Position numbers and translations under genes: made by a program
Part shown: one piece after another, positions 14,493-31,013 of the stretch
How the letters are laid out: every line of letters begins with the position of its first letter
Numbering within the stretch: the first letter of the stretch is position 1
The notes under the pieces: generated by a model
What the model was told of the DNA's origin: nothing
What the model saw: only the letters and a program-made list of their open reading frames with translations
The model's database searches: none
Assembly (NCBI RefSeq): GCF_000146505.1
Contig: NC_017448.1
Location: 1,740,001 to 1,772,000 of the forward strand
Direction of reading: 5' to 3'
Source of the DNA: Fibrobacter succinogenes subsp. succinogenes S85
GTDB lineage: Bacteria > Fibrobacterota > Fibrobacteria > Fibrobacterales > Fibrobacteraceae
Length of the DNA stretch: 32,000 nt

Positions 14493-15716
14493 ATGAACGC
14501 AGAAGTCTTACGCAATGAATTCCCGATGTTGGTCGCAGGCGACAAAGAAGCAAAGCCGCTCGCCTTTTTGGACAGCACCGCCACAACCCAGAAGCCCGCA
14601 AGCGTCATCGACGCGATGGACGATTTTTACCGCGAGCACTACAGCTCCGTGAAGCGCGGGGTTTACCGTCTCAGCGCACGCACTACCGAAGCCTTTGAAA
14701 AGACCCGCAAAGACGTTGCGAAGTTTATCAACGCAAAATCCGAAGACGAAATCGTCTTTACTCGCGGCACCACCGAAAGCATCAATCTCGTTGCCTGGAG
14801 CTACGGACGCAAGTTCTTTGAAGCGGGCGATGAAATTTTAATCAGCGGTTTGGAACACCACGCCAATATCGTAAGCTGGCAGCTCGTCGCCGAAATGAAG
14901 GGCGCAAAGATCAAGGTCATTCCCGTCCGCGATGACGGCGATTTGGACTTGAGCAAGCTCCCCGAGCTTCTCACGCCGCGCACCAAAATGGTCGCCGTTG
15001 CCCACGTGAGCAACTCCGTAGGCACAGTGAACCCGATTGCAGAAATCATTGCAACCACCCGCAAGCTCGCCCCACAAGCAAAAGTTTTGATAGACGCCGC
15101 CCAGAGCTCTAGCCACATCAAGATTGACGTGCAGAAGCTCGACTGCGATTTCCTCGCTTTCAGCGGCCACAAGATGTACGGCCCGACTGGCATCGGCGTT
15201 CTTTACGGCGAGTACGACGTGCTCGACAGCATGCCGCCATGGCACGGCGGTGGCGAAATGATTAAGAACGTCACGTTCGAAAAGACGACTTACGCTGACG
15301 TCCCGGCTCGCTTTGAAGCTGGCACACCTGCCATTGCCGAAGTCATCGGCCTCGGGAAAGCCATCGAATGGCTGAACAATGTTGGCCTTGACAATATTCG
15401 CAAACACGAAGAACAAATCACACAGTATGCTCTGAAGCAGCTCGCCGAAATCCCGCAAGTAAAAGTCCTCGGCAACCCGAAGGAACGCGGAGCGCTTATC
15501 AGCATTACGTTGGATGGCATCGCCGTCGGTGATGCAGCCATGATTCTTGACGAAGAAAACGTCGCCGTGCGCAGCGGTCACCATTGCGCGCAACCGGTAA
15601 TGGACCGTTTTGGCGTAGATGCCACGCTCCGCCTGAGCTTTGGCGTTTACACACTCGAGCGCGACATTGACCGTTTTGTCGCCGGCATCAAGCGCGTCGT
15701 CCGTCTGTTCGCCTAA
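14493..15716 (+). CDS. sufS: Cysteine desulfurase, group II (SufS/CsdA family, PLP-dependent)
   Basis: The 407-aa protein has the PLP-lysine motif SGHKMYGPTGIGVLYG and the catalytic-cysteine loop RSGHHCAQP. It is followed by tcdA, as in csdA-csdL type arrangements. Confidence 0.88.
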   Translation: MNAEVLRNEFPMLVAGDKEAKPLAFLDSTATTQKPASVIDAMDDFYREHYSSVKRGVYRLSARTTEAFEKTRKDVAKFINAKSEDEIVFTRGTTESINLVAWSYGRKFFEAGDEILISGLEHHANIVSWQLVAEMKGAKIKVIPVRDDGDLDLSKLPELLTPRTKMVAVAHVSNSVGTVNPIAEIIATTRKLAPQAKVLIDAAQSSSHIKIDVQKLDCDFLAFSGHKMYGPTGIGVLYGEYDVLDSMPPWHGGGEMIKNVTFEKTTYADVPARFEAGTPAIAEVIGLGKAIEWLNNVGLDNIRKHEEQITQYALKQLAEIPQVKVLGNPKERGALISITLDGIAVGDAAMILDEENVAVRSGHHCAQPVMDRFGVDATLRLSFGVYTLERDIDRFVAGIKRVVRLFA

Positions 15717-18375: not shown

Positions 18376-18861
18376 TTACATATAATTATTTTCATTCCAG
18401 ACGTTTTGCGGGATTAGCATAAAGAGTTTCGGACTTTCGTTCGTTTCTTTTGCAGAGAATTCCACAACACCATTGGTAAAAGCTTTTACCGTTTTTTCTG
18501 AGTAAAAATCAGGGTACTTCGAAATCCAAGAAGTCGAATCCCATTCAGAACACGTAAAGCAACTAAGAAATTCGCGGAGCTTGGCGACCGTTACAGGAGA
18601 TTCCGTGTCTTCGCAGCGATATTCAGCCACGTCGCAATAAAGAACAATATACGGAGAATCCTTTTTGCAACTGTTTACAAGCAGCCGGCAATGTTCCGTA
18701 GCAGCGAAATCATCCCATTCTTCGCCCACCTCGTCCTTGAAAACGTCAACATCTTCCCACATAGGGCAATTACCGAGTGCGGCAACAATTCGCTCACTAA
18801 GGTCCTTACCTTGCACAACGCAAAACAGGGTTTTTGCTTTTAGAAATTCTTTGATAGTCAT
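18376..18861 (-). CDS. Hypothetical acidic, Cys-rich 161-aa protein
   Basis: The evidence is an open frame, an SD (AAGAGGA) and element copy 1 lying 27 nt upstream. I recognise no domain. Confidence 0.55.
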   Translation of the reverse strand: MTIKEFLKAKTLFCVVQGKDLSERIVAALGNCPMWEDVDVFKDEVGEEWDDFAATEHCRLLVNSCKKDSPYIVLYCDVAEYRCEDTESPVTVAKLREFLSCFTCSEWDSTSWISKYPDFYSEKTVKAFTNGVVEFSAKETNESPKLFMLIPQNVWNENNYM

Positions 18862-18888: not shown

Positions 18889-18931
18889 AATGTAGATTCA
18901 ACGGACGACAATTAACGTCGTCCGACATACC
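18889..18931 (-). promoter_or_regulatory. Island element copy 1 (AATGTA box - N10 - ACGAC N7 GTCGT palindrome)
   Basis: AATGTA lies at 18889-18894. GGACGAC-AATTAAC-GTCGTCC lies at 18903-18923 (7-bp arms). The element is 27 nt upstream of ATG 18861 and 17 nt downstream of the GNAT stop. It shares more than 40 nt with copy 3, differing at only a few positions. Confidence 0.6.
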
Positions 18932-18939
18932 AACAGAAT

Positions 18940-19533
18940 TTAATTTGACAACAGCATCAAATCAAAATACATCATGCGAGTATGCAAAGATGCAGACGAC
19001 TCTATATTCCGATACTGGCACTCCTGTTCTTCAGATGAAAACATGTACCGAAAGCCATTAGCCTCATAAAACGAAAGCGGAATTGGCAGATTGTACGCAT
19101 CAACCACAAGATAACGACACCCGGTCTTGTTATCAGGATCTACAAACCACTGTTTGATATAGTCAAGCAGCTCACTTCCGACATGCTGTTTTTTAAAAGG
19201 AACACCTACGCCAAGTCGGCCAATCAACACAGCAGGATATATCAAATCCCGTTTTTCCCAAGGTAGATTTTTACCAATCTGTTTCTTTCGTGCATTGGGA
19301 AGATAGTTTGTAAAAATACTTGCATTAGATACAGTAAAAGCACAAACTACATCTTTTAAGGTAGATGAATCTACAAAAACATAAGTTTTGCCCATCAGTT
19401 GTTGGCTATACATGACAGCATCCTTAGAAAAGAACGAATCCAAGTCTTCGTTACCACAAGAAAAAGCATTACAACGATTTAAAACTGATGGAGTCAGAGC
19501 CGTGCGAATGCAATTAGATTCTAAAAAGGCCAT
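18940..19533 (-). CDS. GNAT-family acetyltransferase, TacT/KacT/ItaT-like type II toxin candidate
   Basis: The 197-aa protein has F.CGNEDLDSFF near the N-terminus, the acetyl-CoA loop PAVLIGRLGVGVPFKKQHVGSELL, and VVDAYN...FYEANGF. It overlaps a small upstream ORF by 13 nt. Confidence 0.72.
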   Translation of the reverse strand: MAFLESNCIRTALTPSVLNRCNAFSCGNEDLDSFFSKDAVMYSQQLMGKTYVFVDSSTLKDVVCAFTVSNASIFTNYLPNARKKQIGKNLPWEKRDLIYPAVLIGRLGVGVPFKKQHVGSELLDYIKQWFVDPDNKTGCRYLVVDAYNLPIPLSFYEANGFRYMFSSEEQECQYRNIESSASLHTRMMYFDLMLLSN

Positions 19534-19715
19534 TTTCCTTCGGCCCTCAGTTTAGCAATTCGTGCAGCATTGCGCATATCAAACCCACTCCACTCAGAAT
19601 GTTGCCGAGTAAAGTCGATAGATCCGCGGTTACGTTCTGCCTCTTCCGCATTTTTCACGAAAGATTCCGCCACCGCATCCGTCAAAATTGGGATATTGCT
19701 AATTGCTAAGGCCAT
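19521..19715 (-). CDS. Small partner ORF of the GNAT toxin (putative antitoxin), 64 aa from ATG 19715; alternative ATG at 19736
   Basis: A strong SD (TAGGAGAACAAATATG) precedes ATG 19715. The 13-nt overlap with the GNAT gene is typical of TA pairs. The track's 109-aa version (start 19850) runs into a terminator hairpin and is unlikely. The sequence is not obviously DUF1778/RHH. Confidence 0.5.
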   Translation of the reverse strand: MALAISNIPILTDAVAESFVKNAEEAERNRGSIDFTRQHSEWSGFDMRNAARIAKLRAEGKWPF

Positions 19716-19831
19716 ATTTGTTCTCCTAATATACATTTTACCGTTTCGATTTGCAATTCTAAATACCGCCGTTGCCGGAATCCAACTGAATACGAACGTG
19801 TTTTTTCTTGACTCATTTAGCCTCCTAGTTT

Positions 19832-19868
19832 TGAAAAAAAGAAAAAGCATCCGAAATTTTTCGGATGC
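19832..19868 (-). terminator. Rho-independent terminator after the tandem AAA+ gene
   Basis: On the minus strand the stem GCATCCG pairs with CGGATGC (19847-19853 / 19862-19868) and is followed by TTTTTCTTTTTTT. Confidence 0.7.
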
Positions 19869-19955: not shown

Positions 19956-22259
19956 TTACAGCCCCAATCTGCGTCCTTGATGGTCATCTTTGTTGGCAAT
20001 TTCTTCGAGCATGTTCTGCATAATCAGTTCTCGCGTGCGCAAGTCAGCGGGAACGTAGACAAGTTTACGGCGAACATTTTGGAAATCGCTGATAGACACG
20101 TTATCGCAAGCAAGAACTTCTCTTGGGCATTTATCCCCAAAAAACGATGTCCATGTTTTCGAAACCTGCTTAGAGTCCATATAGTCAAACGCTAGCTTCA
20201 GCTGAAAACGCCGGCGGATCGCCCAATCCAAAACGTTCTCGTAATTCGTGGCTGCAATAAGCATTCCGTTGAACGAATCCATTTGGCATATAAACTCATT
20301 TACCAAAGTCACTTCCCAGTGATTTTTTGCATTACCACGATTTTCAAAAAAGCTATCAGCTTCGTCAATGAAGAGAATAGCATCGCTCTGTTCAGCTTCT
20401 CTGAACATTTCACGAATGTTGCGTTCCGTATCGCCCACAATTCCGCCAAGGATATCGCTTGCACGTTTCACGAGCAAATCGCGACCAAGAATATCTTGAG
20501 CAATATGCTTTGCATAAGCCGACTTCCCCGTTCCCGGAGGACCATACAAAAAGATGTTCAAGTTTTCTCTGCGACCATTCAATGTCGAAGATCGCCATTG
20601 CGCATCAAAATTTTTGAGCATCGGAATGACATAGTCAATATTCTTTATATCCCCGCTAGAAATGCGGACACATTCCATATTGTATTCAAATTCTTTCGCC
20701 TTCTGCGAGCCCATCGATATGCCCAAAAGTTTGGCATGAGACGACGCAATCTCACGCACCACATTCAACGGGGAAAAATCCGCCGCCTGCATCCGCTGCG
20801 CCTGACGCACCGCCAAAGTTATGCTCCCCGCCATCACGGGAATTTCCTTGGCAATATTCTCTATTTCGTCGTTGCACAAAATCGATTCAGCCTGCTGCGC
20901 TTTAAGAACAGACTGCCAAATTGCAACACGTTCTTTATTACTGAACGTAAAAAATTCCAGCGAATAGTCAAACCGGCGACGAGTACTATTTTCAATACAC
21001 GCAATATTATTCGTAATCCAAATAACAGGCGTTTTCAGATTTTCAAAAATGATATTCAGCAAACCTTTCTCCGCCTGATTCAAGACCAAATCAGCTTCGT
21101 CCATCAGAATTATGCCACCACACCGCTCACATTCCCAATCAGCAAGCAACATGGAACGCAAACGAGTCTGCAAAAGGGATTCCTTATCCATAGATTCATC
21201 GCCCATGCCCACAGCAAGCATAGGGACATTCAACTCCTGAGCAAGCGCTTTCGCAAGTTCCGTTTTTCCCGTCCCTTCACGACCGTAAAAAAGAATATTG
21301 AGAGGCGAACCCTTCTGATGAGTTTTCAGCATCTGCAAAACAAAGAACGCCTGCGGATTCGTCTTGACAATTTGCGCATAACCAACGCAAGGTTTTGGCG
21401 CAGTTTTCAAATCCATAATCCTTGATATATCCGAAAAACCAGACAGGAAATCGCTTACCTCGCTCGCCAAATACAGTTCACGCCGCTTGATTTTCAAATC
21501 TGCATTTCGATTCGTTTCCTCCATACGCACCAGCTGAAACTTGATAAGCGCGCTCTCCTTTGAACAGAGTTCATGCAACGTTTCCGGCTCCAACCCAGCA
21601 ATCAAAGAAATTCGCCTAAACGATCCCCGTTCGGACGGATCAAAGTAATCAAACATTTTCGAGATCTTTTCAACCTTAAAAAACATGTTATGATGATCGC
21701 GCAGCCATAAATACAGCACAAGATCCAAGGCTTCATCCGAAAGATGGAAAAGACGCTTCAATTCAAAAGCCCTCTGCATCGACACATCGCTTTCATCGCA
21801 TCCGCCAGCAAGCCAGTTTGCGGAACACTCTTGAATTGACCGAGAAAGCAACAGGCGTGTATAAACATCACCATCGCCCCAATGAGCAACAAAGCTCAGG
21901 AAATGCTTTGCAAAAATGATTCTTCGGCTTTTATGGAATTCTTCAAGAAGATCCTTCGCCTTGTACCACTTATTCTCAATCTCCGTCGTAATTCCAGTAG
22001 GGAGTTCAATGCGTTCACGGGCTTCATACACTCTATCCAAAAAAGTCGCAACGCATTCATCTGTTATATACTTGTCGCAAAAGACCCGACAATCCCCATC
22101 TGGATAATACCGCATAAAGCGGCTCCAAAATTCCATAATTTTCAAGTCCATAAAAGTCGGCTGACCGCTCAGAGACTTTTCAGAGACACCTTCTTTACCA
22201 AGCATTTTGCGCTTATTTTTAAAGTAATTTTCGATTGTATTTTCGTAATGTAACTGCAT
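19956..22259 (-). CDS. Tandem classical AAA+ ATPase (two ATPase modules) with an uncharacterised ~330-aa N-terminal region
   Basis: Module D1 has Walker A YGREGTGKTELAK and Walker B GIILMDEAD. Module D2 has Walker A YGPPGTGKSAYAK, Walker B ILFIDEADSF and a second region of homology (ATNYENVLDWAIRRRF). I place the start at ATG 22259 (MQLHYEN..), which has a GAGG SD. The track's 22343 start would run through element copy 2. Confidence 0.85.
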   Translation of the reverse strand: MQLHYENTIENYFKNKRKMLGKEGVSEKSLSGQPTFMDLKIMEFWSRFMRYYPDGDCRVFCDKYITDECVATFLDRVYEARERIELPTGITTEIENKWYKAKDLLEEFHKSRRIIFAKHFLSFVAHWGDGDVYTRLLLSRSIQECSANWLAGGCDESDVSMQRAFELKRLFHLSDEALDLVLYLWLRDHHNMFFKVEKISKMFDYFDPSERGSFRRISLIAGLEPETLHELCSKESALIKFQLVRMEETNRNADLKIKRRELYLASEVSDFLSGFSDISRIMDLKTAPKPCVGYAQIVKTNPQAFFVLQMLKTHQKGSPLNILFYGREGTGKTELAKALAQELNVPMLAVGMGDESMDKESLLQTRLRSMLLADWECERCGGIILMDEADLVLNQAEKGLLNIIFENLKTPVIWITNNIACIENSTRRRFDYSLEFFTFSNKERVAIWQSVLKAQQAESILCNDEIENIAKEIPVMAGSITLAVRQAQRMQAADFSPLNVVREIASSHAKLLGISMGSQKAKEFEYNMECVRISSGDIKNIDYVIPMLKNFDAQWRSSTLNGRRENLNIFLYGPPGTGKSAYAKHIAQDILGRDLLVKRASDILGGIVGDTERNIREMFREAEQSDAILFIDEADSFFENRGNAKNHWEVTLVNEFICQMDSFNGMLIAATNYENVLDWAIRRRFQLKLAFDYMDSKQVSKTWTSFFGDKCPREVLACDNVSISDFQNVRRKLVYVPADLRTRELIMQNMLEEIANKDDHQGRRLGL

Positions 22260-22286
22260 GGTTTTAACCTCAATTTTGCACCATGC

Positions 22287-22321
22287 AATATAAAAGAAAC
22301 GCACGACAATTAATGTCGTGC
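22287..22321 (-). promoter_or_regulatory. Island element copy 2
   Basis: AATATA lies at 22287-22292. GCACGAC-AATTAAT-GTCGTGC lies at 22301-22321 (perfect 7-bp arms). The element is 27 nt upstream of ATG 22259 and 29 nt downstream of the stop at 22350. Confidence 0.6.
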
Positions 22322-22349
22322 GAGATTTTTTAACAAGCCACACAAAATC

Positions 22350-23567
22350 CTACATGGCTTCATTTGCTTTATTCTCTACTTTCGCCTCATTTACAATTTT
22401 TTCAGTTTTTTTGTACACATCATACAAACCATCCACAATTTGTTTATCATCATTTTCATCTATAGATTGTACAATAATACTCCATTTTTCATTCTGTGAC
22501 AAATCATGAGTCGTTTTTATAACATCTATTTTACCATCAATCAACTTTTTATACAAAGCTTCCCTGGCTCTATCACCATCACCTTGCCATACACTAAGGC
22601 TAATATCAAATTTTTTCTTATTAAAACCAGCCTCTATTCCTAATGCGTATTTAGGATTATTTTCTTCAAAACATCCTTTTAGATAAAAATAACGCCTCTT
22701 ATCCCGAGGATTTATCCAAATCTCTTTCTTCATAAATTCGCAAAAAGTTGCATTTTCCTTTAAGGCAAGAAGATTCTTTATTTTATCAATATGTTGATTA
22801 TTTTCAACTCTTTGTTTTTCCAAAAAAAGATTTCTGCGTTCAATTAGTTGTTCTATAATTCTATTATTTTCATCATTAAGAAAGAAATCTTTTTCATCTT
22901 TAGAAAAATCCGACATATAGCCTCCCTTTCGGTCTAAAAATAAGATAAAATCTGTTAAAACAGGAAGATATTTGGAATTACATTGTGTTAAATAATTACC
23001 TAAATTTTGTTTTAACTTTTCTAAAAACTCTCTATAATAAATCGTTTTAAAATTAGGATTTACATTCTCATATTCAGCCTTTTGACATAAAGCAAAAAGA
23101 ATACACACCGTGTGTAAATCATAACATTCACTTTCATTTTTAACATAATCATAATAATCATTAAAATCATTGTACGCAGGAGCATCAATTTTATTTTCTA
23201 TACACACTTTTAAGCAATCTGTTGTCAACAGTAAATCAATGCGATTCCCTTTTTCAGTATATATTTCTGTTTCAGCACAAACGCTTCGAGTATGCATGAT
23301 ATTTTTCTTATCAAAATTCTCCACTTCTACTGGATACTTTTCTCGATAAGCATCAAAAAGCGAATTAAAAAAAAGAGTTCTAAACCCATGTGGATTTCTT
23401 GAATCAAAGAAAAAAGCGAATATTCTCGAGCATATTTCTTCTAGCCGATTCCACGGATACTCGCACAATTCCAAATAAGTCGGCTCATACATCGGCTTGG
23501 GAAGAAAGTTGTTAAACTTGTTAAGAAGTTCTTTAAACTTTTCAAGCTGATTTTCATCTTTTTCCAT
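22350..23567 (-). CDS. PD-(D/E)XK nuclease family protein (PDDEXK_4-like), 405 aa
   Basis: The core GNRIDLLLTTDCLKVCIENKIDA fits the D...E-x-K pattern. The N-terminal EEICSRIFAFFFDSRNPHGF resembles the E..HS.fLa.LL.P...Hg stretch of this family. It is a paralog of the 24473-25612 protein. The gene is AT-rich. Confidence 0.7.
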   Translation of the reverse strand: MEKDENQLEKFKELLNKFNNFLPKPMYEPTYLELCEYPWNRLEEICSRIFAFFFDSRNPHGFRTLFFNSLFDAYREKYPVEVENFDKKNIMHTRSVCAETEIYTEKGNRIDLLLTTDCLKVCIENKIDAPAYNDFNDYYDYVKNESECYDLHTVCILFALCQKAEYENVNPNFKTIYYREFLEKLKQNLGNYLTQCNSKYLPVLTDFILFLDRKGGYMSDFSKDEKDFFLNDENNRIIEQLIERRNLFLEKQRVENNQHIDKIKNLLALKENATFCEFMKKEIWINPRDKRRYFYLKGCFEENNPKYALGIEAGFNKKKFDISLSVWQGDGDRAREALYKKLIDGKIDVIKTTHDLSQNEKWSIIVQSIDENDDKQIVDGLYDVYKKTEKIVNEAKVENKANEAM

Positions 23568-23612: not shown

Positions 23613-23654
23613 AATGTAGATTCAACGCACGACAATTAACGTCGTCAGCATACC
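23613..23654 (-). promoter_or_regulatory. Island element copy 3
   Basis: AATGTA lies at 23613-23618. GCACGAC-AATTAAC-GTCGTCA lies at 23627-23647 (5-bp perfect core). The element is 45 nt upstream of ATG 23567 and 27 nt downstream of the stop at 23674. Confidence 0.6.
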
Positions 23655-23673: not shown

Positions 23674-24351
23674 TTATTTCCATAGGGCGCAAATCTTCTG
23701 AATAATCTCTTCCTGTACTTTTCCCTGTGGATGCGGGACGACAATGCAGCAATGCATTTTTCCAGATTCGCCTACTAGGGTAAATTCGCCCGTAGATTCG
23801 TTTTTAGACTTCAATTGACCGCAGGGTTCCCAGCGTTCAAAGAATCGACCAACACCTTTTCCACTTTCGTAGATACCGGTCAAGAAAACGGAAAAACAAG
23901 GATCTAAATCATCCATTTCTGCAAGCAGCAATTGAGCACATTCATTAATCTGTTCACTCCTTAAGCCCTGCGTGGTTCCCTGTTTCGCACGGAAATTAAT
24001 TTTATACAAATCACTCCAATAAAAATCATGGAAAACGTCCGGACCATACGACTCTCCGCGAACTCTTTCAAGAACATGACCGACAACTCGCCAAAAAGGA
24101 GAATCATCATAATAATAACCATCCCTAGATTTGAGCCAGTTCAGTTCATCGTATTCGTAATCGGTCACAAGCGGAACCTTGTCTTGCCCAAGACCGTAAG
24201 TATCACGACCAACGAACATCGGCAACCCTTTCTTAAAGTGGCTTTGCGGACCAACAAAATGCGTCGGCATAATGCCCAAAGCATCGCTATTGGGCAAAGA
24301 TTTCGTCTTTTCGTAAAGGATTTTGTAAAGTTGTTTAACTTGTGGCGTCAT
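23674..24351 (-). CDS. Hypothetical 225-aa protein, possibly uracil-DNA-glycosylase-superfamily fold
   Basis: The coding call rests on the open frame and operon position. The fold idea rests only on FVGRDTYG (compare GQDPYH, motif A) near the N-terminus and VVPHPQG (compare HPSP, motif B) near the C-terminus, in the right order and spacing. This is weak evidence. Confidence 0.55.
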   Translation of the reverse strand: MTPQVKQLYKILYEKTKSLPNSDALGIMPTHFVGPQSHFKKGLPMFVGRDTYGLGQDKVPLVTDYEYDELNWLKSRDGYYYDDSPFWRVVGHVLERVRGESYGPDVFHDFYWSDLYKINFRAKQGTTQGLRSEQINECAQLLLAEMDDLDPCFSVFLTGIYESGKGVGRFFERWEPCGQLKSKNESTGEFTLVGESGKMHCCIVVPHPQGKVQEEIIQKICALWK

Positions 24352-24472: not shown

Positions 24473-25612
24473 CTAACTAAGCTCTTGAATAGCATCATTC
24501 AATTCTTTTACAAGAGTCGTAAAAGAATCAGGAAGTTTATTGTATTCCAAAGCATCTACAAACGAGCTCTCATTTGGAAATAAAGGTATATTATCTGAGT
24601 AGAATCTCCATTTCATATTTGAGTCATCAACACGAAAACAACTGCATTTCGTTAAAAGTAGCTTTATTATATCATCATCTAACTGATTCGCATTTTTTCT
24701 AAGCAATCCGACTATAAATTTTCCATAATACTCTTTTTGGAACTCAACTGTTAAGAGCCATCGTTCATTGAAAATAATATCAAAACTAGAATACTTTTCC
24801 CAAAGTTTTTCTACATTTGAAATTTTAAAATTCAATTCGTTTGCAAACTGCAACAGCCATTCTTTTATTTTATCAGCAAAACACTTTTTTATTTCTAGCT
24901 GACATTGCATCATATAAAAGAAAAGTTTTAATTTATCTTCTGTACTTGTAAACTCAGACACCAATTCTCTTTTTTCTTCTTGAATCATACCTTGTCCTGT
25001 AAGCTTTAATATTAATTCTCTATATTGATCAATAAGTGAATAAATCCGATATTTTGAATTCGTTTCATCCAAACAACTATTAAGCCACTCTAAAATAAAT
25101 GTATCATAAGAAATACTTTTATACAGATTATTTGGTAAACCATCAAGGCTTTTTGCAGACGGGTCTTTTCCATCTAAAGTCAAATACAACAATTGTGCTT
25201 TAGGATACACATCATGATATTTTGCAAGCTGATTATTTTGATCATCTGCGTAAATTTTATTTTCAATCACAACGCTGTTTTCTTTTTTATCAGTCTCTAA
25301 AAAAATGTCAATAAAGCCTTTGCCATATTTTTCAGATTCAACTTTTTTTTCGCACACCACATTACATAAATCGTCATACCTCAAATTTAATCGTTGAAAA
25401 AATAATTTTAAATATTTTGACGATTGTTTATGAGAACCTTTGGGATTCAACAACTCAGCAATAAAAGCAGAATGTTTTTTTTCTACATTTTCCAATTTTA
25501 GCACTTCAAATACATTGAATAGATCCTTTTCTTTTTTTACATTTTCATATTTTCGTTTAATTGATTCTATTTTCGAAAGCAGATTGGATAATATTTCTGT
25601 ATTAGCATTCAT
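24473..25612 (-). CDS. PD-(D/E)XK nuclease family protein (PDDEXK_4-like), 379 aa from ATG 25612
   Basis: It has NVEKKHSAFIAELLNPKGSHKQSSKYLKLF and the core GFIDIFLETDKKENSVVIENKIYADDQNNQLAKY (D...E-x-K plus QL.(R/K)Y). The track's 25645 start is a TTG; ATG 25612 has an AGGGA SD. Confidence 0.7.
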   Translation of the reverse strand: MNANTEILSNLLSKIESIKRKYENVKKEKDLFNVFEVLKLENVEKKHSAFIAELLNPKGSHKQSSKYLKLFFQRLNLRYDDLCNVVCEKKVESEKYGKGFIDIFLETDKKENSVVIENKIYADDQNNQLAKYHDVYPKAQLLYLTLDGKDPSAKSLDGLPNNLYKSISYDTFILEWLNSCLDETNSKYRIYSLIDQYRELILKLTGQGMIQEEKRELVSEFTSTEDKLKLFFYMMQCQLEIKKCFADKIKEWLLQFANELNFKISNVEKLWEKYSSFDIIFNERWLLTVEFQKEYYGKFIVGLLRKNANQLDDDIIKLLLTKCSCFRVDDSNMKWRFYSDNIPLFPNESSFVDALEYNKLPDSFTTLVKELNDAIQELS

Positions 25613-25647
25613 AGGAATCCCTAAATCAAACTTTTCACAGCCCAAAG

Positions 25648-25787: not shown

Positions 25788-26837
25788 TTAAACTCCTTCT
25801 AGCAACAATTCCTTTTTATAGGCAATTATTTCCTTACTTTGCATTTCCACTGACTTTAACCATTTTGTTGAAGTATCCAATTTCGGCTTAAAATTATCAA
25901 TCCAATAATTTTCTTTCTTTTCAAACAATCTAAATAAATATTTACCATGCGTTTGACTTCGCATAAGTTCAATTCGATCCTTAGTAAACAATCTCTGAAT
26001 TTTACAACGAATTCGGTTTGATTCTGCCGCTAACGCAGGAAATTCATTTGATTGTTGCAAAAGCAACAACTTAATTTGCCAGGATTCAAACAGAAAAGGT
26101 ATATGCTTTATCAACATATCCATATGTTTTTTCGCTTTACCACGACTATCCCTAAATCCTAGATTTTCACATTTTTCAATTTCATCTTCTAATGAGCGAG
26201 TAATTTCACTTTCCCCACAACATATCAAATGTAAAGCGTTTGTTATTACTTGCATTTTTCTTTCTGGACTTTCTATATGTTGGGCCAAAAACAACTCATT
26301 TTTTGCGGCATCAACTTTTGCAAACCTATCATTCCACTGACCTTTGTATATATCGTCTATAGATTCCTGCATATTTTGCAAAGTTTCCTGAATTGCCGCC
26401 ATTTGAGAAGATAACGAAGCTAAAGCCATCGCCATTTCGGGATTACCCGTAGGCAAAAAACGCTCTTCTAGATCAACTTGTCCGACAAGTTCATTATTTG
26501 TTCCTCGTAAATTTGGAGAAAGAGCATCTCTTGCTGAATTTTTTAACAATTTGGCACCGATCTTCGCCATTTTCATCATTGTTTTTTGAGTGACGCAATA
26601 AATTTTTTCTCCTTTATTTTTTTCAGAAAGAAAATTCACAAGATGCGGACCAAAATTTTTCAAAGTATCATAAGCCAAATTTCTAGCTTCTATTGCAATA
26701 TCTTTTAATGTTTCCGATTGACTATTTTCAATTATCGAAACATCTCCAAGATTTTCATCATTCTCTTGAAGCAATTGCAGCAGTTTATCTTCACAAACCT
26801 GCAAAGATTTGTGATTTTCATTTACATTTTCACTCAT
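25788..26837 (-). CDS. Hypothetical 349-aa, predicted mostly helical protein (no recognised domain)
   Basis: The evidence is a long open frame in an AT-rich segment and a strong SD (AAGGAGTTTTTATG). It is the first gene of a four-ORF string. Confidence 0.65.
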   Translation of the reverse strand: MSENVNENHKSLQVCEDKLLQLLQENDENLGDVSIIENSQSETLKDIAIEARNLAYDTLKNFGPHLVNFLSEKNKGEKIYCVTQKTMMKMAKIGAKLLKNSARDALSPNLRGTNNELVGQVDLEERFLPTGNPEMAMALASLSSQMAAIQETLQNMQESIDDIYKGQWNDRFAKVDAAKNELFLAQHIESPERKMQVITNALHLICCGESEITRSLEDEIEKCENLGFRDSRGKAKKHMDMLIKHIPFLFESWQIKLLLLQQSNEFPALAAESNRIRCKIQRLFTKDRIELMRSQTHGKYLFRLFEKKENYWIDNFKPKLDTSTKWLKSVEMQSKEIIAYKKELLLEGV

Positions 26838-27029: not shown

Positions 27030-27068
27030 AATATAGAACGGGGCCGCGACAATTACAGTCGTCAGCCC
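27030..27068 (-). promoter_or_regulatory. Island element copy 4 (imperfect, bulged arms)
   Basis: AATATA lies at 27030-27035. GGGCCGCGAC-AATTACA-GTCGTCAGCCC lies at 27041-27068, with the core GCGAC/GTCGT and outer GGGC/GCCC pairing. The element is 192 nt upstream of ATG 26837, inside a 507-bp ORF-poor gap. Confidence 0.5.
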
Positions 27069-27344: not shown

Positions 27345-28631
27345 CTACACTTTTTCAGATCCAAGACTCCACTCTAGTGCGTTTTTTATGTGGATGGTCT
27401 TGCCTTTTACAATCTCGTCACGACTTTCGTCGAAGCAAACCAAAGTCAATTCATTGCACTTGAGCACGTCCGAAGCCTGGACCAAGGCCGAGGTTTCGCG
27501 ATTAAACGCTTTGGTAGAATCAATCTCGTATGCGACTTGCACGAGTTCCTTTGCTTTATCTTGTCTGCAAACAACGAAATCGACTTCTTTAGATTGCGAC
27601 GACGGCTTATAATAATACACGTCATCGAACTCCTTCGCGGCTCGACGCAACAGTTCGATGTAAACCATGTTTTCAAGTCGCCAGCCTAGATTCTCTTGCG
27701 AGAGGGCGTTTTCACGATTGGCAATAAATCCGGTATCAATCACATAAGCCTTGCTGTTACGGAGCCGGACTTTGCTCTTGAACGAATGCTTGCTCAACAG
27801 CCCAATCAAGAAAGCCTGTTTAAGATAATCCACGTATTTTATGGCGGTCGTGGTGCTGTTCAGTCCAAAATTCTCAGCCAGGGATTTGTAATTGACCTCT
27901 TGGCAAGAATTGTTGATTATGTGGTTCGCGATGGTACGGAGAACTTCGGCATGGCGAATTTTGAATCGACCCGCGATATCCTTTAGTATTATAGAGTTAA
28001 ATAAACTTTGTATGTAAGCACGTTTGTTGTTAATGTTTTGCAGTTCCGGGAACCCGCCATATTGCAGATATTCAAGGAAGGCCGATTTACGAGCGGCCTC
28101 TGCCTTAGTCGTAACATCTTGCAGATTCACCTGATGAAAGGCGCAGTATTCCGCAAACGAAAGCGGATAGAGACGAATTTCATTGTAACGTCCGGTCAGA
28201 TGCGTCACAAGTTCGCTACTCAGCAGCTTTGCGTTGGAGCCAGTAACAAACACGTGCAATCCCTGTCGCAAAAGACGGTTCACAAACAAATGCCAACCAT
28301 CGACATTTTGAATTTCATCGAGGAGTATGTACTGGATATCCGTACCGTAGAGTTGATAAAGGCAAAGCAGAAGCGTGTTCAAGTCTTCAACAGAAAGCGA
28401 CATCAACCGATCGTCATCTAGGTTCGCATAAGCATAGTTGATGCCATGATCTTGCAGCACCTTGTGGCATATCGTCGATTTTCCACTGCGGCGAACACCG
28501 ATGACCACCTGTGCAAGCGAACTATCCATTTCAAACAGGGCTTCTTCACTACGAGGCACCCAAGAATCACGCCTAGTCGTGATTTCTTCTTTCTGTTCCG
28601 CAAGAACCTGTAACAGTTTCTTTTCGTCCAT
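27345..28631 (-). CDS. AAA_14/DUF4143-like ATPase, 428 aa
   Basis: It has Walker A GVRRSGKSTICHK and Walker B YILLDEIQNVDGW, plus the C-terminal segment KEVDFVVCRQDKAKELVQVAYEI typical of this family. An SD (AAGAGG) is present. Confidence 0.8.
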   Translation of the reverse strand: MDEKKLLQVLAEQKEEITTRRDSWVPRSEEALFEMDSSLAQVVIGVRRSGKSTICHKVLQDHGINYAYANLDDDRLMSLSVEDLNTLLLCLYQLYGTDIQYILLDEIQNVDGWHLFVNRLLRQGLHVFVTGSNAKLLSSELVTHLTGRYNEIRLYPLSFAEYCAFHQVNLQDVTTKAEAARKSAFLEYLQYGGFPELQNINNKRAYIQSLFNSIILKDIAGRFKIRHAEVLRTIANHIINNSCQEVNYKSLAENFGLNSTTTAIKYVDYLKQAFLIGLLSKHSFKSKVRLRNSKAYVIDTGFIANRENALSQENLGWRLENMVYIELLRRAAKEFDDVYYYKPSSQSKEVDFVVCRQDKAKELVQVAYEIDSTKAFNRETSALVQASDVLKCNELTLVCFDESRDEIVKGKTIHIKNALEWSLGSEKV

Positions 28632-28761: not shown

Positions 28762-29292
28762 TCACAGAATCAAGTTCACGACGAGCTTGACCATGGTTTC
28801 GCGCTCTTCGGGTTTGCTTTCGGCGATGAGCAGCGTGAGTGCGACGAGAGCACCATCGCTCAAAATTTTGGAGCCGTCCACGCGGTAGAGGATTTCGTTG
28901 CGGGACATGTACCACAAGAAAATGAATGCGGCTATGCGCTTGTTGCCATCGATAAAGGAATGGTTCTTGACGAGAAGATAGAGGAGCGTTGCGGCTTTCA
29001 GCTGTACGGTCGGATAAAGGTCCTTGCCGTCGAAGGTCTGGTAAATTTGTCCGAGAGAACTTTTGAAAGAGGCGTCTTTTTCAACGCCGAAGATGCCGCT
29101 GTCGCGGAACTTTTCCTTGAGCACAGCGATAGCGTCCACAGCGAGTTCGTATGTTATGGCACCTTTCGTTTCGGCGTAGTCGCCTGCCTTGGGGATTTCA
29201 AGTTGTTGATGGTCGTACCGGTCCAGCGTTTCGAGGGCCGTTCTAAAGTCGCTGATGACGTTTGCAATTTCAAGTTTTTCGTTTTTATCCAT
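28762..29292 (-). CDS. Fic/Doc-family protein (Doc-type motif)
   Basis: HSFIDGNKRIAAF matches the Doc variant HxFx(D/N)(A/G)NKR of the Fic core. The protein is 176 aa and has a strong SD (AAGGAG). No Phd-like small ORF lies adjacent. Confidence 0.8.
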   Translation of the reverse strand: MDKNEKLEIANVISDFRTALETLDRYDHQQLEIPKAGDYAETKGAITYELAVDAIAVLKEKFRDSGIFGVEKDASFKSSLGQIYQTFDGKDLYPTVQLKAATLLYLLVKNHSFIDGNKRIAAFIFLWYMSRNEILYRVDGSKILSDGALVALTLLIAESKPEERETMVKLVVNLIL

Positions 29293-29322: not shown

Positions 29323-29355
29323 AATATAGAATGACGATGCGACAATTACTGTCGC
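29323..29355 (-). promoter_or_regulatory. Island element copy 5
   Basis: AATATA lies at 29323-29328 and GCGAC-AATTACT-GTCGC at 29339-29355. The element is 30 nt upstream of ATG 29292 and 6 nt downstream of the PLD stop. Confidence 0.6.
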
Positions 29356-29360
29356 TTAGA

Positions 29361-29882
29361 TTACTTGATTCTATCGCTGCAGAATTCCTGGCGGCCGCAT
29401 TTTTCGCAGTGGGCACCCATCCAGAGCGTGTCGAATTGCTCGATGGCGGGTTCGACGATTTGCGGGTCGTTCGTGAGGATTCCCGCTTCGAAGTTGCGAC
29501 GGAGGGAACTTTTCATGCCGATGCCTGCGCCGGTCAAATTTGCGGAGCCGATGTAGGCGGTTTCAAGGTCGAATATCATCATCTTGAAATGCACTCGCGG
29601 ACACATGACGCGTTCAAGGTCGGTCGCGAGAATCTTATAGCGGTCGAAATCTTCGCGGAAGTTCGGGCCGGGTTCCTTGGCGTGAATGAGCCGCACACCT
29701 ACGCCGCGCTTGAGGAGTCCTGCGAGTTGTCCGAGCAGCGGGATTGATTCGCCGTTCTGTTTCACATAAACATCCTTGATGTCGGCGGTACCGATCCAGA
29801 GCGTTTCGTGGACTGTTGCGATACGGGAAATCACTTCGGAATAGTGTTCTTCGTTTTGGATGTACTTGGTAAACGTGGACAT
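29361..29882 (-). CDS. Single-HKD phospholipase D-superfamily protein (Nuc-like endonuclease candidate), 173 aa from ATG 29882
   Basis: It contains a perfect HxK(x)4D(x)6GSxN motif: HFKMMIFDLETAYIGSANLT. The small size implies a homodimeric Nuc/BfiI-like active site. The C-terminus carries CEKCGRQEFC. The track's 29912 start is a TTG inside element copy 6. Confidence 0.85.
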   Translation of the reverse strand: MSTFTKYIQNEEHYSEVISRIATVHETLWIGTADIKDVYVKQNGESIPLLGQLAGLLKRGVGVRLIHAKEPGPNFREDFDRYKILATDLERVMCPRVHFKMMIFDLETAYIGSANLTGAGIGMKSSLRRNFEAGILTNDPQIVEPAIEQFDTLWMGAHCEKCGRQEFCSDRIK

Positions 29883-29889
29883 AGAAAGA

Positions 29890-29938
29890 AATATAGTATT
29901 GTCGCACGACAATAAATGTCGTCGGATTTATATATATT
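29890..29938. promoter_or_regulatory. Island element copy 6, flanked by divergent -10 boxes (PLD to the left, WYL regulator to the right)
   Basis: ACGAC-AATAAAT-GTCGT lies at 29906-29922. An outward-facing TATATT box sits exactly 10 nt away on each side: AATATA at 29890-29895 (minus strand) and TATATT at 29933-29938 (plus strand). Confidence 0.6.
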
Positions 29939-29996
29939 GAAAATACAAGATGGCGATGCCGGAACGGAGTCCGGCATGACAAGGAAAGAGGTTTTT

Positions 29997-31013
29997 ATGG
30001 AAAATCCGGGTCGCGGCGAACGCATGGTGCGAATTTTTGTGTACCTGATGGCACACTATAACAATCGTTATAGCGTTACGGACATCATGCAGCATTTGGA
30101 TATTCCCGCAAATGAATTGCGAAGCGTGCAGCGCGATATGCAGGCCTTGACAAATCTTGAAAGCCGTTACATCCAACGCATTACTGACAGTGGCAAGACT
30201 TATTACCAGGCGGCGCTTGAACGTGCGAACAAGCTCGTATTCCCAGAGTTTGGCGACATGGTTTTGCATTTCGTCTTTTTGCAGCGCATCGCAAACTTGT
30301 ACCCGGCAACAGCTAGCCTTATCGATGACCTCACCAAGAGAATCACGCAGGATTTGCCCGCGAAGCAGCAAGATGTTTTGAAGAGCTATTCAAAAGAATT
30401 GAGCGGGCGCATTCTCTTTATGGGGACTCCGCCCAATTACGACGAAGACGTGAGCAAGCACCTGCCGACCATTCTTAACGCGATTCGTCAAAAACGGAAA
30501 GTACAGATAAAATATACAGACAATTGGGGAACGCCATCGGATAAGCCACGCATTCCGCTGATGGTCGCCATAAGTCATGGAGACATTTATATCGGTTGCG
30601 TTTCGCAGCACCACCCCGACAAAACTTACGCGTTAAAATTGCAACGCATCGAGTCGGTAAAATTGCTGAAGGAAACTTTTGAAGAAGACCCGAAGGTTGT
30701 TGAATCACTGCGCAAGCGCATCCGCACGGGATCTTTGCTTTTGGGCGAACAGAATCCGCAAGAGGAAAAGGTCGTCATTTACTTCCCGAAATACGCCAAG
30801 AACTTTTTGAAGGAACGTCCGTACCACCGCTCCATGGAAATGGAAGACGCGCCAGGCGACGAGATCCGCGTAACGATGAAGGTCGAGGTGAACGAGCTGC
30901 TCAAGCAGTGGATTATGTATTATGGGAACATCGCGACGGTTGAACAGCCGAAAAAGTTGAGGCAGATGATACTGGAAACGGCAAAAAAGCTGGTGGAAAA
31001 GTACGAAAAGTAA
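29997..31013 (+). CDS. WYL-domain transcriptional regulator (HTH - WYL - C-terminal extension)
   Basis: The N-terminal wHTH-like segment is RMVRIFVYLMAHYNNRYSVTDIMQHLDIPANELRSVQRDMQAL. The WYL-type core is KVQIKYTDNWG...PRIPLMVAISHGDIYIGCVS....YALKLQRIESVKLL. I place the start at ATG 29997, which has the SD AAGGAAAGAGG. The track's 29916 start would run through the operator. Confidence 0.8.
   Translation: MENPGRGERMVRIFVYLMAHYNNRYSVTDIMQHLDIPANELRSVQRDMQALTNLESRYIQRITDSGKTYYQAALERANKLVFPEFGDMVLHFVFLQRIANLYPATASLIDDLTKRITQDLPAKQQDVLKSYSKELSGRILFMGTPPNYDEDVSKHLPTILNAIRQKRKVQIKYTDNWGTPSDKPRIPLMVAISHGDIYIGCVSQHHPDKTYALKLQRIESVKLLKETFEEDPKVVESLRKRIRTGSLLLGEQNPQEEKVVIYFPKYAKNFLKERPYHRSMEMEDAPGDEIRVTMKVEVNELLKQWIMYYGNIATVEQPKKLRQMILETAKKLVEKYEK

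What the first reader, a model, noticed from the sequence alone, without database searches (positions are those of the whole stretch)
29890..29996. Copy 6 sits mirror-symmetrically between back-to-back promoters of the PLD nuclease and the WYL regulator
The palindrome ACGAC-AATAAAT-GTCGT (29906-29922) has an outward-facing TATATT box exactly 10 nt from each arm (29890-29895 on the minus strand, 29933-29938 on the plus strand). One bound dimer could therefore control both divergent genes. This is the classic layout of an autoregulated repressor and its target, and it nominates the WYL protein as the factor recognising all six copies. The PLD ATG lies only 7 nt from its box, which implies a leaderless mRNA. 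The WYL leader contains a 7-bp hairpin, TGCCGGA-ACGGAG-TCCGGCA (29957-29976).
Basis: partly seen in the sequence, partly recalled or inferred. Interest (0 to 1): 0.65.

Follow-up and report, generated by a model that had tools for sequence, protein, structure and literature searches.

The report
DriD-type WYL box driving divergent promoters
A short DNA palindrome between a nuclease gene and a WYL regulator gene in a Fibrobacter genome is the binding box of a DriD/DdaA-type regulator, and it most likely switches on, rather than represses, both genes and five neighbouring defence-like gene cassettes.

Summary
ACGAC-AATAAAT-GTCGT (29906-29922) has an outward TATATT exactly 10 nt from each arm. 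The PLD ATG lies 7 nt from its box, and the hairpin at 29957-76 exists. The composite TGTCG-N11-TAnnTT occurs 7 times in the window (0.2 expected), marking seven promoters at six sites. The true sixth site is 29339-55; 15285 is chance.

In 72 Fibrobacter loci encoding homologues of the WYL protein, 109 of 125 intergenic CGAC-N7-GTCG sites carry TAnnnT at this exact spacing. They sit in front of about 28 unrelated gene families. The mirror form recurs at the WYL/divergent-gene junction.

The "autoregulated repressor" reading is not supported:
- The palindrome equals the experimentally defined DriD box (ATACGAC-N7-GTCGTAT) and the DdaA box.
- The spacing equals the PafBC motif tGTCgg-N10-tAnnnT.
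- The predicted fold is closest to DriD and PafBC.
- The site replaces the genus' own -35 (TTG at 23 nt in generic promoters, absent here).
- The repressors BrxR and CapW bind on or downstream of the -10.

The most likely mechanism is a ligand-gated (probably ssDNA) activator firing -35-less promoters in both directions. A leaderless PLD mRNA is supported (10/10 orthologues). The leader hairpin is a dispersed REP-like repeat.

This is a new member of a known kind.

The parts
29906..29922 (.). Palindromic regulator box ACGAC-AATAAAT-GTCGT (site 6), shared by two divergent promoters
   Evidence: identical in form to the DriD consensus ATACGAC(N7)GTCGTAT (PMC10853764) and the DdaA motif CGWCA-N5-TGWCG (PMC12392091)
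29890..29895 (-). -10 box TATATT of the PLD promoter, 10 nt from the left arm
   Evidence: conserved in L001-5, L014, L020, L022
29933..29938 (+). -10 box TATATT of the WYL promoter, 10 nt from the right arm; predicted TSS near 29945
   Evidence: a box at this offset points at the WYL gene in 41 of 71 loci
29361..29882 (-). PLD-family nuclease gene (173 aa); its ATG lies 7 nt after the -10 box, so the mRNA is probably leaderless
   Evidence: Pfam PLDc_2 2.4e-14; DrmC-like in PADLOC; 10 of 10 orthologues have d=7 and 173 aa
29997..31013 (+). WYL regulator gene (338 aa): wHTH, three-helix bundle, WYL, WCX
   Evidence: Pfam WYL+WCX; AF2 model pLDDT 78.8; Foldseek best hits DriD 1e-13 and PafBC 4e-10
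29957..29976 (+). 7-bp hairpin in the WYL 5' leader; member of the dispersed repeat GAT[TG]CC[CG]G..loop..C[GC]GG[AC]ATGAC (29955-29980)
   Evidence: 22 copies in the loci, mostly intergenic and unrelated to WYL leaders
29981..29991 (+). Shine-Dalgarno-like AAGGAAAGAGG ahead of the WYL ATG
   Evidence: N-terminus fixed by alignment of homologues
29323..29355 (-). Site 5: GCGACAATTACTGTCGC (29339-55) plus box (29323-28), promoter of the Fic/DOC gene 28762-29292
   Evidence: missed by the 17-mer search
27030..27062 (-). Site 4: GCGACAATTACAGTCGT plus box, promoter of 25788-26837 and probably 24473-25615 (PD-(D/E)XK, PDC-S26) and 23674-24351
23613..23645 (-). Site 3: ACGACAATTAACGTCGT plus box TACATT, promoter of the PD-(D/E)XK gene 22350-23567
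22287..22319 (-). Site 2: ACGACAATTAATGTCGT plus box, promoter of the tandem AAA ATPase 19956-22262 (then 19521-19850 and GNAT 18940-19533); the extended 9-bp stem also scores as a terminator-like hairpin
   Evidence: the same promoter-gene module occurs in 11 other loci
18889..18921 (-). Site 1: ACGACAATTAACGTCGT plus box TACATT, promoter of the 161-aa gene 18376-18861

Best explanation
[quoted passage not shown] Its wHTH pair binds the palindrome (A/G)CGAC-N7-GTCG(T/C).

At every target the half-site nearest the promoter sits exactly 11 nt upstream of a TATATT -10 box. That places it about -28 to -23, with the whole palindrome at about -39 to -23. It therefore occupies the place of a -35 element, which these promoters lack.

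The most likely mechanism is activation. When the WYL domain is loaded with its ligand, the dimer binds the box and recruits or adapts the housekeeping RNA polymerase to these otherwise weak promoters. By analogy with DriD, PafBC, SiwR and CapW, the ligand is probably single-stranded DNA produced by DNA damage or phage replication.

Because the site is two-fold symmetric, a -10 box 10 nt outside either arm makes a working promoter. At 29906-29922 both arms have one. The same bound dimer can therefore fire the PLD nuclease gene leftwards, as a leaderless mRNA starting at or next to the A of its ATG. It can also fire its own gene rightwards, which is positive autoregulation.

Five further copies drive the other minus-strand cassettes of an 11-kb defence-like island: PD-(D/E)XK nucleases, a tandem AAA ATPase with a GNAT pair, Fic/DOC, and proteins of unknown function.

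Shown here: the sequence anatomy, its conservation, the fold similarity and the absence of a -35. Inferred: binding, the direction of regulation, the ligand and the transcription start sites.
For: 1. Site-gene linkage. CGAC-N7-GTCG lies within 200 nt upstream of the WYL start in 44 of 71 loci, including all of L001-L031. The background rate is 0.11 per kb. Composite-site density is 0.71 per kb in the first upstream kb and about 0.03-0.1 per kb further out.

2. Rigid spacing. 121 of 250 flanks carry TAnnnT at offset 11 from the 15-mer, and the next best offset has 22. 109 of 125 intergenic sites have the box, against 3 of 21 intragenic sites. The boxes precede about 28 unrelated downstream gene clusters. 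The spacers differ in sequence but not in length.

3. No -35 element. None of the seven window promoters is found by a TTGACA-N16-18-TATAAT scan. As an internal control, 30 of 126 generic Fibrobacter TATATT boxes have TTG exactly 23 nt upstream (a 17-nt spacer). Only 1 of 77 site-linked boxes does, while 64 of those 77 have TTG at 17, which is the half-site.

4. Asymmetry. The promoter-proximal half TTGTCG is better conserved than the distal half CGACAn.

5. Fold. The Foldseek ranking is DriD 1e-13, PafBC 4e-10, CapW about 5e-7, BrxR about 2e-6. The model contains the three-helix bundle between the wHTH and the WYL domain.

6. Literature.
- The DriD site is ATACGAC(N7)GTCGTAT with an AT-rich centre. 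It is read by R37 and R41 and is also present in the driD promoter (PMC10853764).
- DriD sites overlap the -35 position at a fixed distance from the -10, and those promoters lack a -35 (PMC13004042).
- The PafBC motif is tGTCgg(N10)tA(N3)T, which gives the same GTCG-N11-TAnnnT spacing (PMC8635444).
- DdaA binds CGWCA-N5-TGWCG and activates DNA-damage and defence genes (PMC12392091).
- The Fibrobacter family has invariant R42, Q45, R46, D47 and M48 in the recognition helix.
Against: - No experiment exists for this protein or genus. Binding, the ligand and the sign of regulation are inferred.
- A repressor bound at -39 to -23 would also block RNA polymerase. Fixed spacing could partly reflect shared ancestry of a promoter module rather than a functional constraint.
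- Sequence similarity to DriD is too low for a residue-level alignment. HMMER finds only the WCX region. Equating R42/R46 with DriD R37/R41 therefore rests on motif spacing.
- The model has low confidence (pLDDT 50-67) across the helical bundle.
- My reading of the published Caulobacter oligonucleotides gives 10-12 nt to the -10, not demonstrably 11.
- Positive autoregulation needs some basal expression, and I did not identify its source.
- No classical DNA-repair gene was seen under a box within the 10 kb fetched on each side.
- The housekeeping promoter rules of Fibrobacter are unpublished, so they rest on my own statistics.
Confidence: 0.62

Rival explanations
1. BrxR/CapW-style repressor. 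The WYL dimer sits on the palindrome in uninfected cells and blocks RNA polymerase at both divergent promoters and at the five other cassettes. A ligand releases it.
For: - Defence-associated wHTH-WYL-WCX proteins characterised so far (BrxR, CapW) are repressors (PMC9122601, PMC9122588, PMC11662680).
- The regulated genes are defence-like or toxic: PDC-S01, PDC-S23 and PDC-S26 hits, a PLD nuclease and Fic/DOC. Tight repression of such genes is plausible.
- A site at -39 to -23 would occlude sigma region 4.
- The protein also matches CapW and BrxR structurally at about 1e-6.
Against: - Known WYL repressor boxes overlap the -10 (CapW) or lie downstream of it (BrxR). They do not replace the -35.
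- Repression does not require the single-nucleotide spacing seen at 109 of 125 sites in front of unrelated genes.
- The promoters lack the -35 that generic Fibrobacter promoters have. They should be weak without help, so there would be little to repress.
- The structural ranking and the identity of the DNA motif point to the activators DriD, DdaA and PafBC.
Confidence: 0.27
2. Dual switch. The apo or low-affinity form occupies the box and keeps the promoters off, and the ligand-bound form activates, in the manner of MerR or AraC.
For: This is compatible with all of the geometry. It is also compatible with the need to keep nucleases and toxins silent.
Against: Apo DriD is auto-inhibited and binds its DNA site only weakly (PMC10853764, PMC13004042). 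Nothing in the sequence discriminates this model from plain activation.
Confidence: 0.08
3. The palindromes are not regulator sites. They are cassette-boundary elements: terminators, REP elements or recombination sites of an integron-like array.
For: - The copies lie between same-strand cassettes of differing GC content.
- The copy at 22300-22322 scores as a terminator-like hairpin on both strands.
- Flanks show extra complementarity up to 4 bp beyond the core: a mean of 3.3 paired positions out of 8, against 2.5 in shuffled partners.
Against: - No recombinase is present in the island.
- Most copies lack a T-tract.
- A fixed -10 box follows almost every copy.
- A copy precedes the WYL gene in every close orthologue, whatever lies upstream.
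- The sequence equals a biochemically defined protein-binding site (PMC10853764).
- Flank symmetry is expected for a symmetric dimer.
Confidence: 0.03

Closest known systems
DriD (Caulobacter crescentus), ssDNA-activated WYL transcription activator
   Same: - It is the best structural match (8tp8, E 1e-13).
- It has the same domain order, including the three-helix bundle.
- It has the same palindrome, CGAC-N7-GTCG, with an AT-rich centre.
- The site sits in the regulator's own divergent intergenic region.
- The site replaces the -35 at a fixed distance from the -10.
- Its regulon includes an endonuclease, BapE (PMC10853764, PMC13004042).
   Different: - Sequence identity is only about 14%, and the phylum differs (Fibrobacterota against Alphaproteobacteria).
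- In Caulobacter the shared site fires only the divergent operon. Here both sides carry a consensus -10.
- The targets seen here are a local island of defence-like cassettes, not recA, recJ, dnaG or didA.
- One target here is leaderless.
DdaA (Moraxellaceae), WYL activator of DNA-damage and anti-phage genes
   Same: Its motif, CGWCA-N5-TGWCG, is the same as CGACA-N5-TGTCG here. It activates defence systems (RM, Zorya, CRISPR-Cas) as well as repair genes. Basal members are self-regulated (PMC12392091).
   Different: DdaA controls a genome-wide regulon that replaces SOS. Here I can only see a clustered regulon next to the regulator. Its authors place the motif at a distance they consider different from the PafBC arrangement, whereas the Fibrobacter spacing equals that of PafBC.
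PafBC (Actinobacteria), sigma adaptation at -26-element promoters
   Same: Its promoter grammar tGTCgg-N10-tAnnnT matches GTCGy-N10-TATATT exactly. Its promoters have no -35. Two Arg residues at i and i+4 read the GTC triplet. It senses ssDNA (PMC8635444, PMC11804915).
   Different: PafBC is a heterodimer that uses a single half-site. Here there is one gene, a full palindrome is required, and half-site-only promoters are not above chance.
BrxR / CapW, WYL repressors of BREX, CBASS and defence islands
   Same: They share the wHTH-WYL-WCX architecture and a palindromic operator in a shared divergent promoter region. They associate with mosaic defence islands. BrxR has two boxes in one island (PMC9122601, PMC9122588).
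   Different: Their operators overlap or follow the -10. They lack the three-helix bundle organisation. Their motifs differ (11-bp repeats with a 5-bp gap, or 19-24-bp palindromes). They are weaker structural matches (about 1e-6).
SiwR (Mycobacterium smegmatis), homodimeric WYL activator
   Same: It is a homodimer with an imperfect palindrome just upstream of the -10, between the regulator gene and a divergent target operon. It needs ssDNA-binding residues (PMC10693628).
   Different: It has a single known target operon of DinB-like genes. Its 19-bp palindrome has a different sequence.

Membership tests
DriD/DdaA-type WYL activators | wHTH, three-helix bundle, WYL, WCX architecture | tested here: met
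   Pfam WYL 3.8e-05 and WCX 1.1e-10. The AF2 model has helices 85-101, 103-118 and 122-135 between the wHTH and the WYL domain. The top Foldseek hits are full-length DriD chains. The bundle region has low pLDDT (50-67).
DriD/DdaA-type WYL activators | Cognate site CGAC-N7-GTCG with an AT-rich centre, present in the regulator's own promoter | tested here: met
   The site is present at 29906-22 and upstream of the gene in 44 of 71 homologous loci. Physical binding was not testable.
DriD/DdaA-type WYL activators | Site overlaps the -35 position at a fixed distance from the -10, and the promoters lack a -35 | tested here: met
   Offset 11 in 121 of 250 flanks. No sigma70-type match at the seven window promoters. 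TTG at the -35 position in 30 of 126 generic boxes against 1 of 77 site-linked boxes.
DriD/DdaA-type WYL activators | Two base-reading arginines spaced i and i+4 in the recognition helix | tested here: inconclusive
   R42 and R46 are invariant in 30 and 29 homologues, within the pattern (R)R-N/S-V-Q-R-D-M. Equivalence to DriD R37/R41 or PafB R46/R50 is inferred from spacing. HMMER could not align the HTH to any WYL structure.
DriD/DdaA-type WYL activators | ssDNA binding to the WYL domain switches on DNA binding and activation | not testable with these tools
   Only a conserved basic pair, K214 and R217, in the WYL domain was noted.
DriD/DdaA-type WYL activators | Regulon includes DNA-damage response genes | tested here: inconclusive
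   Within 10 kb on each side, boxes precede nucleases, ATPases, Fic/DOC, an AbiEii-like ATPase and a GyrA N-terminal-like gene. No recA or uvr genes were seen. Whole genomes could not be scanned.
PafBC sigma-adaptation system | PafB/PafC heterodimer acting on a single half-site | tested here: not met
   There is a single regulator gene. Full palindromes are required. Half-site-only composites occur at chance level.
PafBC sigma-adaptation system | Promoter grammar tGTCgg-N10-tAnnnT without a -35 | tested here: met
   GTCG(T/C)-N10-TAtaTT in 117 non-identical promoters, matching PMC8635444.
BrxR/CapW WYL repressors | Operator overlapping or downstream of the -10 (steric repression) | tested here: not met
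   The palindrome ends 10 nt upstream of the -10 at all seven window promoters. BrxR and CapW geometry is taken from PMC9122601 and PMC9122588.
BrxR/CapW WYL repressors | Co-localisation with phage-defence genes | tested here: met
   PADLOC hits to PDC-S01, PDC-S23, PDC-S26, IetA-like and DrmC-like models. These are candidate systems, not validated ones.

The most novel reading that the evidence does not exclude
A portable promoter module of about 40 bp (DriD box, 10 nt, TATATT) has been attached to many unrelated, horizontally acquired defence or toxin cassettes of differing GC content in Fibrobacter. A whole mosaic island then stays silent until one ssDNA-sensing WYL activator fires it. At the regulator's own locus a single symmetric box acts as a shared -35 surrogate for two opposed promoters, coupling a leaderless nuclease mRNA to positive autoregulation.
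Probability: 0.35. Interest if true: 0.62.

Novelty: new member of a known kind. Interest (0 to 1): 0.45.

Why it matters
This extends the DriD/DdaA/PafBC promoter grammar (GTCG-N11-TAnnnT, no -35) to a fourth phylum, Fibrobacterota. It implies that the DNA specificity and the polymerase-docking geometry of this WYL branch are ancient.

It also gives a clean natural example of a two-fold symmetric activator site serving two opposed promoters. It shows a defence-like island wired by activation rather than by the repression described for BrxR and CapW.

Practically, the composite motif predicts which uncharacterised Fibrobacter genes are induced together. About 28 gene families carry it, and many have no known domain. 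They are candidates for DNA-damage or phage-induced functions in an important rumen fibre degrader.

Tried and rejected
- The hit at 15285 as a sixth copy. Rejected: it is intragenic and shares no flanks.
- The leader hairpin as a WYL-specific riboregulator. Orthologues looked like compensatory change. However, the same GAT[TG]CC..GG[AC]ATGAC hairpin occurs at 22 places, mostly intergenic and unrelated to WYL leaders. Rfam finds nothing in the window.
- The palindromes as RNA or DNA hairpins under structural selection. Flank complementarity is only modestly above shuffled partners and is limited to 4 bp, which fits a symmetric dimer.
- Half-site-only promoters of the PafBC type. These are at chance level.
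- Sequence-level alignment to DriD, PafBC, CapW or BrxR. phmmer and profile searches of the PDB failed, apart from a weak WCX match to PafC.
- The metagenome pattern scan. It returned mostly chance matches, for example inside a serine-recombinase ORF. About 22 of 120 hits lie next to WYL homologues, so it was uninformative about a genome-wide regulon.
- A literature search for Fibrobacter promoter consensus or Fibrobacter WYL proteins. Nothing relevant was found.
- The exact DriD box-to-(-10) distance. It could not be fixed from the published oligonucleotides; I read 10-12 nt.

Full report
**1. The observation**

Reading 29700-30200 directly confirms every coordinate.
- The palindrome ACGAC-AATAAAT-GTCGT lies at 29906-29922.
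- AATATA at 29890-95 is TATATT on the minus strand, and TATATT lies at 29933-38 on the plus strand. Each box is 10 nt from its arm.
- The PLD start codon (minus strand, 29882-29880) is 7 nt beyond its box.
- The hairpin TGCCGGA-ACGGAG-TCCGGCA lies at 29957-76.
- The WYL gene starts at 29997 (MENPGRGER...), preceded by AAGGAAAGAGG. It does not start at the upstream in-frame ATG at 29916, because homologues align from this methionine.

ACGAC-N7-GTCGT with up to one mismatch occurs 6 times against 0.38 expected. One of those hits, at 15285, is inside a SufS-like ORF and shares no flanks, so it is chance. A true copy with G/C outer bases, GCGACAATTACTGTCGC at 29339-55, was missed by that search. 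The composite TGTCG-N11-TAnnTT gives exactly seven hits in 32 kb against 0.20 expected. These are six sites, and site 6 counts twice because it has a box on both sides.

**2. Surroundings**

All six sites lie in intergenic gaps of an 11-kb block (18.4-31.0 kb). Every gene there except the WYL gene is on the minus strand.

| Coordinates | Gene product |
|---|---|
| 18376-18861 | protein of unknown function (161 aa) |
| 18940-19850 | GNAT protein plus a small partner |
| 19956-22262 | tandem AAA ATPase (IetA-like) |
| 22350-23567 | PD-(D/E)XK protein (PDC-S26) |
| 23674-24351 | protein of unknown function |
| 24473-25615 | PD-(D/E)XK protein (PDC-S26) |
| 25788-26837 | protein of unknown function |
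| 27345-28631 | AAA_14/DUF4143 protein (PDC-S01) |
| 28762-29292 | Fic/DOC protein |
| 29361-29882 | PLD nuclease |

GC content is mosaic, 29-35% at 22-27 kb and 42-50% elsewhere in the block. The rest of the window holds housekeeping genes (pilC/pilT-like genes by my reading of the translations, EpmA-like, SufS-like by my reading of its translation, ThiF) and has no box.

**3. Comparative evidence**

The WYL protein has more than 180 homologues. Every homologue that carries an organism name comes from Fibrobacter. One scan of genome contigs returned 72 loci.
- CGAC-N7-GTCG lies within 200 nt upstream of the WYL start in 44 of 71 loci. That includes every locus whose protein is at least 48% identical. 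The overall rate is 0.11 per kb.
- Across the window and the loci there are 125 intergenic and 21 intragenic occurrences. 109 of the intergenic ones carry TAnnnT exactly 11 nt after the 15-mer (10 nt after the 17-mer) on one or both sides. Only 3 of the intragenic ones do.
- Of 250 flanks, 121 have the box at offset 11, and the next best offset has 22.
- The boxes point at about 28 unrelated gene clusters. These include WYL genes, tandem AAA ATPases, PLD, Fic/DOC, an AbiEii-like ATPase, a GyrA N-terminal-like protein, a Fib_succ_major protein and many proteins with no domain.
- The 10-nt spacers differ in sequence but not in length.
- Promoter-gene modules move as units. The AAA-ATPase module lies upstream of the WYL gene in some loci and downstream in others.
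- The mirror form, with TATATT on both sides, occurs 12 times. Eleven of these are at the junction of the WYL gene with a divergent gene.

**4. Identity of the factor**

Pfam finds WYL and WCX domains. [quoted passage not shown] The Foldseek ranking against the PDB is DriD (1e-13), PafBC (4e-10 to 3e-9), CapW (about 5e-7) and BrxR (about 2e-6).

DriD's experimentally defined consensus is ATACGAC(N7)GTCGTAT with an AT-rich centre. Arg37 and Arg41 read it, and a copy lies in the driD promoter region (PMC10853764). The Moraxellaceae activator DdaA binds CGWCA-N5-TGWCG (PMC12392091). The Fibrobacter box is the same sequence. The Fibrobacter family has an invariant R42-x-x-Q45-R46-D47-M48 recognition helix.

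The claim that the WYL protein recognises all copies is therefore strongly supported, although binding was not shown.

**5. Activator or repressor**

The geometry argues otherwise.
- DriD sites overlap the position of the -35, sit at a constant distance from the -10, and belong to promoters without a -35 (PMC13004042).
- PafBC promoters read tGTCgg(N10)tA(N3)T (PMC8635444). That is GTCG-N11-TAnnnT, identical to the Fibrobacter grammar.
- SiwR is a third WYL activator with a palindrome just upstream of the -10 in a divergent region.
- The repressor CapW binds palindromes that overlap the -10. BrxR binds repeats downstream of the -10.

In the window, a sigma70-type scan finds none of the seven promoters.

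I also built an internal control from the loci. Among 126 TATATT boxes upstream of genes without a site, 30 have TTG exactly 23 nt upstream. That is a -35 with a 17-nt spacer and consensus cTTGC, and no neighbouring offset has more than 6. Among 77 site-linked boxes, 1 has it, while 64 have TTG at 17, which is the half-site. The site-linked promoters therefore lack the genus' own -35 and carry the regulator half-site instead.

The position matrix of 117 non-identical promoters shows that the promoter-proximal half (TTGTCG) is better conserved than the distal half. It also shows a T at box position 5 in 117 of 117 promoters. Half-site-only promoters are at chance level, and distant paralogues tolerate CGTC in the distal half. 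This fits a DriD-like homodimer rather than a PafBC-like heterodimer.

I rate activation at about 0.6-0.7, plain repression at about 0.25-0.3, and a non-regulatory role for the palindromes at about 0.03.

**6. The symmetric site**

With a two-fold symmetric dimer, either half-site can act as the proximal element. At 29906-22 both arms are followed by TATATT. The two -10 boxes are 37 bp apart, and the predicted start sites (29882 and about 29945) are about 64 bp apart. One bound dimer could therefore serve both promoters. Whether two polymerases can load at once is unknown.

In Caulobacter the corresponding site fires only the operon divergent from driD. In Fibrobacter the box pointing at the WYL gene is present in 41 of 71 loci at the strict offset. 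That implies positive autoregulation.

**7. Leaderless PLD**

All 10 PLD orthologues that sit behind a box have exactly 7 nt between the box and the ATG, and all are 173 aa. This includes L030, where the PLD gene is not paired with the WYL promoter.
- The 7 nt vary (TCTTTCT, TCCTTAT, TTAAAAC, TCATCCC) and contain no Shine-Dalgarno sequence.
- Codons 2-6 differ by synonymous changes (ACG/ACC/ACA/ACT, TTT/TTC, AAG/AAA).
- The Pfam PLDc_2 match starts at residue 20.

This supports a leaderless or near-leaderless mRNA, provided the box is the -10.

**8. The hairpin**

The hairpin is real, with a leader MFE of -14.8 and z of -2.4. However, it belongs to a family, GAT[TG]CC[CG]G..loop..C[GC]GG[AC]ATGAC, with 22 copies in the loci. 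Most are intergenic and unrelated to WYL leaders, for example directly after the WYL stop codon in L001 and L002, and an identical copy sits in L032. Many orthologues with short leaders lack it. It is best described as a dispersed REP-like repeat that happens to lie in this leader.

**9. Novelty**

A WYL activator with this box is known from DriD. A WYL activator that controls anti-phage genes has been published as DdaA (2025). What is new here:
- the phylum;
- the exact match to the PafBC spacing combined with a DriD palindrome;
- the clustered, cassette-by-cassette wiring of a mosaic island;
- the bidirectional use of one box;
- the leaderless target.

I file it as a new member of a known kind, with moderate interest.

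Noticed in passing
window 29339-29355 (box 29323-29328): A true sixth copy of the box, GCGACAATTACTGTCGC, lies between the PLD stop codon and the Fic/DOC start. The 17-mer search missed it because its outer bases are G/C.
   Followed up: yes
window 29955-29980; L001 9333 and 11022; L002 9876, 11022, 16051; L032 20675; others: A dispersed REP-like hairpin family, GAT[TG]CC[CG]G..loop..C[GC]GG[AC]ATGAC, has 22 copies in the loci. The stems vary with compensatory changes (CCGGA/TCCGG, CCCGC/GCGGG). Its function is unknown and Rfam has no match.
   Followed up: partly
window 22300-22322: In the AAA-ATPase module the box extends to a 9-bp stem (CGCACGAC...GTCGTGCG) followed by T-rich tails on both strands. 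It scores as a terminator-like hairpin and may also terminate the upstream cassette.
   Followed up: no
window 18.4-31 kb, especially 22-27 kb: GC content is mosaic, 29-35% against 42-50% elsewhere in the block. Cassettes of apparently different origin all carry the same box-plus-TATATT promoter module. The same module-gene units appear on either side of the WYL gene in other genomes.
   Followed up: partly
L032-L072 (e.g. L036 9961, L059 6425/7804/8683, L060 4039/5150): Fibrobacter genomes carry several WYL paralogues of 40-45% identity. Their boxes often read CGTC-N7-GTCG with the spacer ATTATTT. A box frequently sits just after the WYL stop codon, pointing at the next gene (46 nt to its ATG).
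   Followed up: partly
L001-L072, generic intergenic regions: There is statistical evidence for the ordinary Fibrobacter promoter, cTTGC-N17-TATATT. TTG lies exactly 23 nt upstream of 30 of 126 TATATT boxes. I found no published consensus.
   Followed up: partly
L015, L018, L019 (record titles): Contigs labelled Alistipes onderdonkii, Methanomethylophilaceae archaeon and Senegalimassilia sp. encode WYL proteins 63-67% identical to the Fibrobacter one, with the same box. Binning contamination is likely.
   Followed up: no
L023 12621, L031 14409: A 337-342-aa protein matching only the N-terminal part of GyrA/ParC (PF00521, 1.5e-52) sits directly behind a box. It may be a gyrase-related decoy or toxin. 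DdaA also regulates gyrA and gyrB.
   Followed up: no
window 1642-8867 (minus strand): A low-GC (about 30%) block encodes an 1819-aa protein with Sacsin and HATPase_c_3 domains and a 600-aa protein with no domain. It may be a separate defence-like locus, and it carries no WYL box.
   Followed up: no
L079, L081, L103, L105 (6310), L107, L129, L137, L180, L185: Nine metagenome hits to the composite pattern share the identical sequence CGACAATTATTGTCGAACTATATAAGTATATT. In L105, the only one examined, it lies inside a serine-recombinase (resolvase) ORF. These are chance matches, not promoters.
   Followed up: yes
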